Shown here: positions 62,636 through 64,000 of the stretch, piece by piece
Layout: the number at the start of each line of letters is the position of its first letter
Position numbering within the stretch: position 1 is the stretch's first letter
NCBI RefSeq assembly: GCF_988243305.1
Contig: NZ_OZ547136.1
Length of the DNA stretch: 64,000 nt
Reading direction: 5' to 3' (one strand)
Program-made: the position numbers

Positions 62636-64000
62636 TAGCCCCGTCACGTAAAGCTTGTCGAGTTGACGGGCGGCATCATATGAATTCCGCCCGAATGTGT
62701 CAACGGCAAATTGCAACGTGTAGTTTCAATCGCTGAAAAATCAGGCAAATGAACAATTTTGGAAAACCGCTCGCATTCAGTAGTTATTCATGTCACGGTT
62801 TCCTGTAAAGTGGTGTTATAAAATGAACTACTAATAGACCCACATACATTCAGGGAATTGTTATGTTCAAGGAGAGGATGACGCCAGATGAACTTGCCAG
62901 ACTGACCGGCTATAGCCGCCAGACCATTAATAAATGGGTACGCAAGGAAGGCTGGACAACGTCACCAAAACCAGGCGTCCAGGGTGGCAAAGCCCGACTG
63001 GTTCACGTCAATGAACAGGTTCGTGAATATATTCGCAATGCTGAACGTCCAGAAGGTCAGGGAGAAGCGCCTGCCCTGTCTGGTGATGCGCCGCTTGAAG
63101 TGTTGCTGGTGACACTGGCGAAAGAGATGACGCCAGTTGAACAAAAACAGTTTACATCCTTGCTTCTGCGGGAAGGGATTATCGGATTATTACAACGCTT
63201 AGGGATTCGCGATAGCAAATAATATGAAAAGATTACGCAATAAAATGACCACCGAAGAACTGGCTGAATGCCTCGGTGTGGCTAAACAAACTGTTAACCG
63301 TTGGATCAGAGAAAAAGGCTGGAAAACGGAAAAATTTCCTGGCGTGAAAGGCGGTCGTGCCAGACTTATTCTGGTCGATACGCAAGTTTGCGAGTTTATT
63401 CAGAACACGCCAGCCTTCCATAACACGCCGATGCTTCTGGAAGCCGAAGAACCCCTTGCCGAATACGCACCGGGGATTCGCACTCCTGCTTATCGGCAAA
63501 TCATCAGCGCAATAGACAACATGACTCACAGTGAGCAGGAAAAAGTTGCGCAATTTTTGTCACGCGAAGGAATTCGTAATTTCCTTGCTCGTCTCGACAT
63601 AGATGAATCAGAATAAATAAATATCCTCCGGCATAGCCGGAGGTTTTTCAAATGCGCCTATAAGGCTCTCTTACCAGCCGCGCCCTAACAGGCGCACACG
63701 ATCTGACATTTGCATCCAACTTCGTTACTTACGGCCCGTAAACGGGCTGCCCGGATAGGGAATCGATAACTGCTCTCCCATTTTATCCTCTTCAAGCTGG
63801 TGCTTTATGTAATCCTGTATCTTCGCCGTGTTCTTACCCACCGTATCGACGTAATACCCTCTGCACCAGAACTCCCTGTTCCTGTATTTGAATTTCAAAT
63901 CACCAAACTGCTCGTAAAGCATCAGACTGCTTTTCCCTTTCAGATATCCCATAAAGCCTGATACGCTCATTTTGGGCGGGATCTCCACAAGCATATGGAT

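What the first reader, a model, noticed from the sequence alone, without database searches (positions are those of the whole stretch)
63655..64000. IS200-family element inserted immediately downstream of yfeD
The last 270 bp of the window encode the C-terminal 89 residues of an IS200-type TnpA on the minus strand, where the K-12 order I recall has the yfeD-gltX intergenic region. IS200 is not part of the K-12 IS repertoire as I remember it, so this marks the strain as non-K-12 and could affect expression of the neighbouring gene outside the window.
Basis: partly seen in the sequence, partly recalled or inferred. Interest (0 to 1): 0.35.

Follow-up and report, generated by a model that had tools for sequence, protein, structure and literature searches.

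The report
IS200C insertion sequence after yfeD
The window ends inside a copy of IS200C, a small and well-known E. coli jumping gene, which sits between yfeD and gltX just past a transcription terminator; this is an ordinary strain polymorphism, though the same spot has been hit several separate times in other strains.

Summary
Window 63725-64000 (minus strand) encodes residues 62-152 of a Y1/HUH transposase. The fragment is identical in protein sequence to the IS200C TnpA WP_000526135.1 (Pfam Y1_Tnp 1.3e-18; NCBIfam transpos_IS200 1.5e-20).

The hairpin at 63625-63643 is the IS right end, not the yfeD terminator.

Nine of 5,426 complete E. coli genomes carry a complete 711-bp IS200C at this site. 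K-12 and most strains have the empty site. The nine genomes show two insertion points 3 nt apart, four IS sequence variants and two flank alleles, all in one orientation. That means at least three independent insertions.

In 41 independent IS200C-type copies from E. coli and 16 other Enterobacterales genomes, the left end always abuts a T-rich motif (TTNTT in 37 of 41). This motif lies just 3' of a GC-rich hairpin, that is, an intrinsic terminator; here it is the gltX terminator. The terminator stays attached to gltX, and both IS ends look like terminators, so an effect on neighbouring genes is unlikely.

The element is already known and of low interest. The terminator-directed targeting is the only notable point, and it is probably at least partly described already.

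The parts
63616..64000 (-). Right-hand 385 bp of an IS200C element (711 bp in the nine genomes that have it at this site). The window ends inside it. The first base that is unambiguously IS is 63622.
   Evidence: 99.5% identical to the Ec42 copy. Divergence from the empty sites of 118UI and K-12 begins at 63622. The end sequence ...GGAGGATATTTATT is shared by all copies examined.
63616..63621 (.). Junction ambiguity zone. AATAAA is both the last 6 nt of the IS right end and the sequence of the empty site. It overlaps the last base of the yfeD stop codon, which stays TAA.
   Evidence: Comparison of filled and empty sites.
63625..63643 (.). Right-end subterminal hairpin CCTCCGGC-ATA-GCCGGAGG, the presumed TnpA binding site. 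It is terminator-like in both directions: TTTTTC follows on the + strand and ATATTTATT on the - strand.
   Evidence: It is nearly the same as the left-end hairpin CCCCCAGC-TAG-GCTGGGGG.
63653..63696 (-). Second, longer imperfect stem-loop in the non-coding right end.
   Evidence: DNA fold of 63616-63727(-): -23 kcal/mol, z = -4.3. Inverted repeat I4.
63725..64000 (-). tnpA, partial: codons 62-152 plus the stop (63725-63727). The 5' 61 codons lie beyond the window.
63809..63811 (-). Codon of catalytic Tyr125, in QDYIKHQ on the C-terminal helix. Gln129 is at 63797-63799.
   Evidence: Aligns with the YIxxQ tyrosine of IS608 and Sulfolobus TnpA. Y125F is catalytically dead in Salmonella IS200 (PMC4513863).
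63995..63997 (-). Codon of His63, the second histidine of the HUH motif H61-I62-H63. The codon of His61 falls just outside the window.
63224..63616 (+). yfeD, intact. Its stop codon abuts the IS right end.
   Evidence: Pfam YfeC-like 2e-61. Annotated yfeD in all matched genomes.
62863..63222 (+). yfeC (context).
   Evidence: Pfam YfeC-like 3.6e-51. Annotation.

Best explanation
What it is: the window ends inside a copy of IS200C, the E. coli member of the IS200 group of the IS200/IS605 family. It is about 711 bp, has one gene and no terminal inverted repeats. It lies on the minus strand, co-oriented with gltX, between the yfeD stop codon and the bidirectional yfeD/gltX terminator.

Shown here:
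- Its identity.
- Its right end and subterminal hairpin.
- The catalytic Tyr125/Gln129 and half of the HUH motif.
- Clean insertion without target duplication, in the genomes that hold the whole element.
- Left-end placement immediately 3' of the T-tract of the gltX terminator.

Inferred from the family (IS608 and ISDra2 work):
- A TnpA dimer binds the two subterminal hairpins on the top strand.
- It cuts with Tyr125 and the HUH-bound metal and releases a single-stranded circle.
- It pastes the circle 3' of a short target motif in single-stranded DNA, mostly on the lagging-strand template.

Consistent with this, the IS top strand is on the minus strand, and the + strand shows negative GC skew (it reads as the lagging strand). 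The four bases 5' of both hairpins are AAAA. By analogy with the IS608 guide sequences, these would pair with the T-rich cleavage sites (target TNTT, right end TATT).

Expected consequence here is close to neutral. yfeD keeps its stop codon and gains the right-end hairpin plus T5 as a terminator-like 3' end. gltX keeps its own terminator. The left end carries the known bidirectional terminator and the 5'UTR/art200 controls that keep tnpA nearly silent.
For: - Identity: Pfam and NCBIfam hits above the curated cutoffs. 100% amino-acid and 99.5% nucleotide identity to the annotated IS200C of Ec42.
- Catalytic residues: alignment to solved Y1 transposases 2EC2, 2F4F, 2A6M, 2VJV and 2XM3, with HUH and Tyr conserved.
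- Insertion: 711 bp relative to the empty sites, no duplication.
- Left-end anatomy in Ec42: hairpin at nt 15-37, a second stem-loop at about nt 73-141, and an Rfam STnc490 hit of 146 bits. This matches published Salmonella IS200 (PMC4513863; PMC5435999).
- Distribution: IS200C is at least 80% complete in 2,063 of 5,426 E. coli genomes.
- Target: 41 unique left-end flanks; 36 have a perfect GC-rich hairpin ending 12 nt or less before the junction, and the other five fold at -11 to -20 kcal/mol. The comparison values are 4% of T[TA]NTT control sites and 10% of runs of six or more T in the window. Median folding energy is -18.1 against -6.0 kcal/mol.
- Strand: GC skew is negative on the + strand across the window.
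- Family mechanism: PMC5027513, PMC5934647.
Against: - Only 385 of about 711 bp are in the window. The left end, the first 61 codons (including His61) and gltX itself are not seen here; completeness is inferred from nine other genomes.
- No genome in the collection is identical to the window (best 99.6%), so the source strain could differ beyond 64000.
- Transposition chemistry, guide pairing and lagging-strand targeting have not been shown for IS200C itself; they are transferred from IS608 and ISDra2.
- The variable position of the IS200C target (-3) is not in the same register as the non-Watson-Crick position of the IS608 target (-2).
Confidence: 0.93

Rival explanations
1. The copy is not a complete element. 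It could be a truncated remnant, or a breakpoint where recombination between IS200C copies has joined yfeD to some other region, so that gltX does not follow.
For: The window stops at codon 62 of tnpA, so nothing beyond can be checked. Partial IS200C copies do exist: about 1,000 genomes have only partial matches, and many plasmids carry just nt 3-341. One strain, HCM-28C-2, has other IS-mediated damage at this locus.
Against: All nine genomes with the IS at this site have the full 711-712 bp (707 in one) followed by gltX. The window part has no frameshift or stop and only two synonymous differences from the Ec42 copy. gltX is an essential gene.
Confidence: 0.06
2. The terminator-adjacent position reflects survival, not targeting. 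IS200C inserts at any T-rich site, and only copies that land harmlessly just past a terminator persist.
For: IS elements in general are depleted from genes and promoters by selection. The copies examined are standing genomic copies, not fresh transposition events. T-tracts of five or more T are a cheap target, with 263 in this window alone.
Against: All 41 junctions lie in one register with, and one orientation to, a nearby hairpin: 36 lie 1-9 nt past the foot of a perfect stem and the other five follow imperfect stems. Only 5-15% of T-runs in the window have such a hairpin. The yfeD/gltX terminator was hit at least three times at two positions 3 nt apart, always on the same strand. Selection alone would leave insertions scattered through neutral intergenic DNA and in both orientations.
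Confidence: 0.2
3. The ORF is a REP-associated tyrosine transposase (RAYT) or another domesticated Y1 gene, not an insertion sequence.
For: RAYTs share the Y1_Tnp fold and occur in E. coli, including K-12 (PMC3333891). The full protein gives a weak NCBIfam REP_Tyr_transpos hit (32 bits).
Against: That hit is far below its cutoff of 80 bits, whereas transpos_IS200 scores 147.7 against a cutoff of 55. The DNA is a discrete 711-bp unit, present or absent at this site and found in up to 35 copies per genome.
Confidence: 0.01

Closest known systems
IS200C (E. coli; the name used by NCBI PGAP and ISfinder for this element)
   Same: The TnpA fragment is 100% identical to WP_000526135.1. The DNA is 99.5% identical to annotated copies and has the same right end.
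   Different: Nothing of substance: two synonymous SNPs (63854, 63959). The chromosomal site is rare, found in 9 of 5,426 complete genomes.
IS200 of Salmonella enterica (707 bp; Lam and Roth; Beuzon and Casadesus; Ellis and Haniford)
   Same: Single tnpA gene with catalytic Tyr125. Left-end terminator hairpin and a 5'UTR stem-loop that hides the Shine-Dalgarno sequence. The STnc490/art200 region matches Rfam at 146 bits in the Ec42 copy.
   Different: 711 bp here against 707 bp published. I did not align it to a Salmonella copy, so percent identity is not measured here.
IS1541 of Yersinia (IS200 ortholog)
   Same: Same group. It is reported between pheL and pheA, that is, just past an attenuator terminator (PMC3082878). 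One IS200C-type copy in Yersinia pekkanenii also abuts a terminator.
   Different: It reaches a much higher copy number in Yersinia (PMC4513863). The original insertion-site paper (Odaert 1998) was not available, so its account of target sites is unchecked.
IS608 (Helicobacter pylori) and ISDra2 (Deinococcus), the mechanistic paradigms of the family
   Same: Y1/HUH TnpA that aligns with E 4e-19 and 2e-16. Subterminal hairpins at both ends. The left end inserts 3' of a short motif without duplication. A 4-nt stretch lies 5' of each hairpin where the IS608 guides sit.
   Different: No tnpB. The target is T-rich (TNTT), not TTAC or TTGAT. The target is almost always next to a hairpin, which the IS608 base-pairing model does not require.
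IS609 of E. coli K-12 and RAYT/TnpA-REP
   Same: Same superfamily of Y1 transposases, and both present in K-12.
   Different: Different elements. K-12 has no IS200 according to the published IS table (PMC5009759). The RAYT model scores below its cutoff.

Membership tests
IS200/IS605 family, IS200 group | Encodes a Y1 (HUH) transposase of the Y1_Tnp / transpos_IS200 type | tested here: met
   Window fragment: Pfam PF01797 at 67.8 bits (cutoff 23) and NCBIfam NF033573 at 73.7 bits (cutoff 55). Full protein in Ec42: 147.7 bits.
IS200/IS605 family, IS200 group | HUH metal-binding motif | tested here: inconclusive
   The window holds only I62-H63; the His61 codon lies just beyond 64000. The motif is complete (HIH) in the near-identical Ec42 copy and aligns with the HIH of IS608 TnpA.
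IS200/IS605 family, IS200 group | Catalytic tyrosine on the C-terminal helix (Y-I-x-x-Q) | tested here: met
   Tyr125 (63809-63811) and Gln129 (63797-63799) align to the YIxxQ of 2EC2, 2F4F and 2A6M. Y125F is catalytically dead in Salmonella IS200 (PMC4513863).
IS200/IS605 family, IS200 group | No terminal inverted repeats; similar subterminal hairpins at both ends | tested here: met
   Right-end hairpin in the window at 63625-63643. Left-end hairpin in Ec42. The two differ at a few positions only. No terminal inverted repeats were found. The left end is outside the window.
IS200/IS605 family, IS200 group | Insertion without target-site duplication, left end 3' of a conserved short target motif | tested here: met
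   A 711-bp gain relative to the empty sites, with flanks rejoining exactly. Left-flank pentamers in 41 sites: TTTTT 23, TTATT 8, TTGTT 4, TTCTT 2, others 4.
IS200/IS605 family, IS200 group | About 700 bp with tnpA only (no tnpB) | tested here: met
   711 bp with a single 152-aa ORF in the nine genomes with the element at this site. This cannot be tested within the window itself.
IS200/IS605 family, IS200 group | Left-end regulatory RNA structures (terminator hairpin, stem-loop hiding the Shine-Dalgarno sequence, art200/STnc490) | tested here: met
   Rfam RF01405 at 146 bits and a DNA fold with z = -6.1 in Ec42. These lie outside the window, and no Rfam hit falls in the window part.
IS200/IS605 family, IS200 group | Single-strand 'peel and paste' transposition on the lagging-strand template | not testable with these tools
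   Only orientation is available. The IS top strand is on the minus strand, and the + strand has negative GC skew. This agrees with the rule described in PMC5027513.
REP-associated tyrosine transposase (RAYT) | Scores above the NCBIfam REP_Tyr_transpos cutoff; single-copy gene flanked by REP sequences | tested here: not met
   32.2 bits against a cutoff of 80. The element is multicopy and mobile.

The most novel reading that the evidence does not exclude
IS200C-type elements choose their targets by structure. They insert 1-9 nt past the foot of a GC-rich DNA hairpin, at the end of its T-tract. That is, they insert at intrinsic terminators read on the strand that carries the T-run, probably the lagging-strand template. 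Individual terminators such as yfeD/gltX therefore become recurrent hot spots.

This goes beyond the IS608 model of a 4-nt target recognised by base pairing alone. It would also explain why these elements are so benign.

Part of this is probably in the literature already. A 2025-26 preprint reports terminator-like sequences enriched upstream of IS200/IS605 elements. I recall a similar remark for IS1541 but could not check it.
Probability: 0.45. Interest if true: 0.4.

Novelty: already known. Interest (0 to 1): 0.17.

Why it matters
For this window it matters little. It is a neutral-looking insertion polymorphism that marks the strain as non-K-12 and could serve as a typing marker.

It also gives a practical lesson for annotation. 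The hairpin plus T-run right after yfeD is the end of the IS, not the gene's own terminator. PGAP also places a spurious transposase pseudogene over the other IS end.

The wider point is that every IS200C-type copy examined sits at the T-tract of an intrinsic terminator, and that this terminator was hit repeatedly. If that reflects true targeting, it would explain the harmlessness and persistence of IS200 elements. It would also add a structural rule for target choice to the base-pairing model of the family.

Tried and rejected
- Rfam on the whole window found only three tRNAs. The IS200-related family (STnc490) lies in the left end, beyond the window.
- The promoter scan of the full element found no sigma-70-like site. 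This fits the reported weak, undefined tnpA promoter and gives no sign of an outward promoter.
- I first placed the IS boundaries at TTGTGCAC...GGATATTTA from two junction types. After comparing 13 and then 41 copies I revised them to GTGCAC...ATATTTATT with a flanking TT target.
- I looked for the source genome. No complete E. coli genome matches the 801-bp junction query at 100% (best is Ec42 at 99.6%). Other parts of the window reach only 99.2-99.5%.
- Literature: Odaert et al. 1998 on IS1541 insertion sites is not held. Searches for an explicit statement that IS200 targets terminators found only the 2025-26 preprint on IS 'niches'.
- Absence of IS200 from K-12 could not be tested by direct search, because results are listed per best record. 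I relied on the published IS table of an MG1655 derivative.
- RAYT identity was considered and rejected.
- Window 1-41 kb was checked for anything linked to the IS, such as an island or prophage. It is ordinary chromosome: fad genes, a fimbrial operon, argW, csc, dsdA, emrKY, evgAS, oxc/frc.

Full report
**1. The observation**

The minus strand of the window is open from the last base (64000) down to a TAA stop at 63725-63727.

- The fragment hits Pfam Y1_Tnp 'Transposase IS200 like' at E 1.3e-18, covering profile positions 53-121 of 121.
- It hits the NCBIfam equivalog transpos_IS200 at E 1.5e-20, above the curated cutoff.
- It is identical, residue for residue, to positions 62-152 of the 152-aa TnpA annotated in many E. 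coli genomes as 'IS200/IS605-like element IS200C family transposase', WP_000526135.1.
- The upstream ORFs are yfeC (62863-63222) and yfeD (63224-63616).
- The order pdeA, alaX, alaW, yfeC, yfeD, gltX is that of K-12 MG1655.

**2. Where the element really starts**

A megablast of window 63200-64000 against 5,426 complete E. coli genomes finds yfeD everywhere. In all but nine genomes the match stops at window 63621.

- Empty site (strain 118UI)...GAATCAGAATAAATAAAAAACGGCAGGGGTATCTCTCCTGCCGTTTATCTTTTATGCGCTAATTA(gltX). K-12 is equivalent.
- Filled site (window, strain Ec42)...GAATCAGAATAAATAAATATCCTCCGGCATAGCCGGAGGTTTTTC....

The hairpin at 63625-63643 followed by a T-run looks like the yfeD terminator but is absent from the empty site. 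It is the right-end hairpin of the IS. The true yfeD/gltX terminator (AAACGGCAGG...CCTGCCGTTT) lies on the far side of the element, outside the window.

The insert is 711 bp in Ec42. Six bases (AATAAA, 63616-63621) are common to the IS end and the empty site, so sequence alone cannot fix the junction within that stretch. Using the ends shared by all copies (GTGCACAG...GGAGGATATTTATT), the IS occupies 63616 onward. Its last base then doubles as the third base of the yfeD stop codon, which remains TAA.

**3. The whole element, seen in other genomes**

In Ec42 the element has the following features.

- One ORF of 152 aa.
- No terminal inverted repeats.
- A left-end hairpin CCCCCAGC-TAG-GCTGGGGG at nt 15-37, followed by a long stem-loop at about nt 73-141 that ends at the start codon (z = -6.1).
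- A right end with an inner stem and the hairpin CCTCCGGC-TAT-GCCGGAGG, 9 nt from the tip (z = -4.3).

The two subterminal hairpins are near-copies of each other, as expected for TnpA binding sites. Rfam places STnc490 (the art200 / tnpA 5'UTR region) on the left end at 146 bits. This anatomy is that published for Salmonella IS200:

- 707 bp;
- terminator hairpin at nt 12-34;
- a stem-loop at nt 69-138 that hides the Shine-Dalgarno sequence;
- the antisense RNA art200;
- catalytic Tyr125 (PMC4513863; PMC5435999).

The protein aligns with solved Y1 transposases of Sulfolobus, IS608 and ISDra2 (E 4e-23 to 1e-14). H61-I62-H63 lies on their HUH motif, and QDY125IKHQ129 lies on their YIxxQ helix. 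Within the window I can see I62, H63, Tyr125 and Gln129; the His61 codon falls just beyond the edge.

**4. How common it is, and how many times this site was hit**

IS200C is at least 80% complete in 2,063 of 5,426 genomes, with up to 35 copies per genome. At the yfeD/gltX site it occurs in only nine genomes. I fetched all nine and compared junctions and IS sequences. They are not one event.

Written in the orientation of the IS, the empty site is CCTGCCG-TTTTTT^ATT^TATTCTGATTC. The carets mark two insertion points.

| Group | Insertion point | IS variant / flank |
|---|---|---|
| Window, Ec42 | after TTTTTTATT | variant 1 (the window adds two private synonymous SNPs) |
| 98210 | after TTTTTTATT | variant 2; lacks 4 bp of the TATT repeat at the right junction |
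| 14EC020, HCM-28C-2 | after TTTTTT | variant 3 |
| AF40 | after TTTTTT | variant 4: 23 differences in 713 nt and a different TnpA protein |
| DETEC-S792 | after TTTTTT | variant 2 plus one SNP; one extra base at the right junction |
| 10034940-2, 15.03CC | after TTTTTT | variant 2, on a K-12-like flank allele |
| B19374 | after TTTTTT | variant 2, on a K-12-like flank allele; one extra base at the right junction |

All ten copies have the same orientation. Allowing for gene conversion between IS copies and for recombination of flanks, at least three independent insertions are needed, and five or six are likely. This terminator is a recurrent target.

**5. The target rule**

Eight further E. 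coli copies at unrelated loci were examined (lacZ/lacY, pqqU/mcbR, speC/nupG, carB/caiF, plaP/sbcB, yicH, a prophage, an integrase). An exact-match scan of one genome per species with 20 nt of the left end gave 32 more loci in 16 other Enterobacterales genomes (Citrobacter, Kluyvera, Brenneria, Mangrovibacter, Pluralibacter, Kosakonia, Entomohabitans, Yersinia, Raoultella and MAGs). Together these give 41 distinct left flanks.

- Every one reads [GC-rich hairpin][T-tract]|GTGCACAG.
- The five bases before the junction are TTTTT (23), TTATT (8), TTGTT (4), TTCTT (2) or a near variant (4).
- In 36 of 41, a perfect stem of at least 5 bp with at least 3 G-C pairs ends within 12 nt of the junction. 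The other five have imperfect stems that fold at -11 to -20 kcal/mol.
- Among control sites in the window, such a hairpin precedes 4% of 1,486 T[TA]NTT sites, 5% of runs of five or more T, 10% of runs of six or more T, and 15% of runs of seven or more T. Median folding energy is -18.1 against -6.0 kcal/mol.

The hairpins differ from site to site, and at yfeD/gltX the hairpin is present in the empty site. They are therefore target features, not part of the element.

In the annotated E. coli cases the hairpin is the terminator of the gene just upstream of, and co-oriented with, tnpA. Here that gene is gltX. From the element's point of view this is an insertion at the gltX terminator, which happens to be shared with yfeD.

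**6. Mechanism**

*Shown:* the parts list above; clean insertion without duplication; a T-rich motif at the left flank and the similar TTATT at the right tip.

*Inferred from IS608 and ISDra2 (PMC5027513; PMC5934647):*

- A TnpA dimer binds the two top-strand hairpins.
- The cleavage sites are read by base pairing with a 4-nt guide lying 5' of each hairpin.
- The top strand leaves as a circle.
[quoted passage not shown] The cleavage sites are TNTT (target) and TATT (right end), which fits A:T guide pairing. However, the variable position is not in the same register as in IS608.

The + strand of the window has negative GC skew throughout, and the locus lies at 2.52 Mb on the K-12 map, in the left replichore. 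The minus strand is therefore the lagging-strand template, and it carries the IS top strand, as the family rule predicts.

What the IS608 model does not predict is the adjoining hairpin. I favour true structural targeting: a hairpin plus T-tail resembles the element's own right end, which is a hairpin plus ATATTTATT. Post-insertion selection is a real alternative, and I put it at about 0.2.

**7. Consequences for the neighbours**

- yfeD is intact. On its strand the right-end hairpin is followed by TTTTTC and scores as terminator-like.
- gltX converges on the element and keeps its hairpin and T6 tract untouched. Its promoter is at the far end.
- The IS left end carries a bidirectional terminator reported to stop about 85% of incoming transcripts (PMC5435999).
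- No sigma-70-like outward promoter was found.

**8. K-12 and strain identity**

K-12 has the empty site. The IS inventory of an MG1655 derivative lists IS609 (IS200/IS605 family) but no IS200 (PMC5009759).

The strain is non-K-12 on other grounds too:

- csc sucrose genes next to dsdA;
- no prophage at argW;
- a different yfeD 3' allele.

No complete genome in the collection is identical to the window. Ec42, from Ghana, is closest at the junction (99.6%).

**9. Verdict**

This is a known element (IS200C) at a rare but recurrent chromosomal site. Novelty: already known. Interest: low.

The one point worth carrying forward is the near-absolute association of IS200C-type left ends with intrinsic terminators. 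A recent preprint reports this statistically for the family, and older IS1541 work may have noted it; I could not verify that.

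Noticed in passing
L001 4098-4178 (+); also L005, L006, L007, L048, L049: RefSeq/PGAP annotates a 78-81 nt pseudo-CDS, 'IS200/IS605 family transposase, incomplete, missing N-terminus', on the strand opposite tnpA. It spans the IS200C left-end hairpin and the gltX terminator. It looks like an annotation artefact, since the stretch is non-coding hairpins.
   Followed up: partly
L049 1-530 (E. coli DETEC-S792): A second IS200C copy lies about 180 bp from the alaX-alaW tRNA-Ala pair, 1.5 kb from the yfeD/gltX copy. Its left end abuts the hairpin and T-run that follow the tRNA ...CTCCACCA end.
   Followed up: partly
window 19086-19160 and 17000-41000: tRNA-Arg(CCT) (argW) is followed by csc sucrose-utilisation genes, dsdA, emrKY, evgAS and oxc/frc. 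No prophage or integrase lies beside argW in this strain, whereas Ec42 has integrases on both sides of argW. GC content is only 0.43-0.47 across 16-40 kb.
   Followed up: partly
L005 1-1785 (E. coli HCM-28C-2): At the same locus, yfeC and the 5' part of yfeD are replaced by an IS110-family fragment and ISVsa5. Three different IS families therefore meet within 2.5 kb.
   Followed up: no
L001/L003 versus L002, downstream of gltX: The tRNA cluster beyond gltX differs between strains. K-12 and Ec42 have Val-Val-Val-Lys followed by xapR (Ec42 also has an RtT element). Strain 118UI has Val-Lys-Val-Lys followed by a FlxA-like gene and yfeR.
   Followed up: no
window 62863-63616: yfeC and yfeD are adjacent paralogues: both match Pfam YfeC-like over its full length, and 1 bp separates the yfeC stop from the yfeD start. 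RefSeq names yfeD inconsistently, as 'MerR family' or 'YfeC-like'.
   Followed up: no
L008 (E. coli strain 7/2): An IS200C copy sits in the short lacZ-lacY intergenic region, opposite in orientation to the lac genes. It abuts a hairpin there. A polar effect on lacY/lacA is possible but was not examined.
   Followed up: no
plasmid hits H57-H61: Many E. coli plasmids carry the same truncated IS200C fragment (nt 3-341 only), in one case next to IS1. This suggests one ancestral truncation that has spread on plasmids.
   Followed up: no
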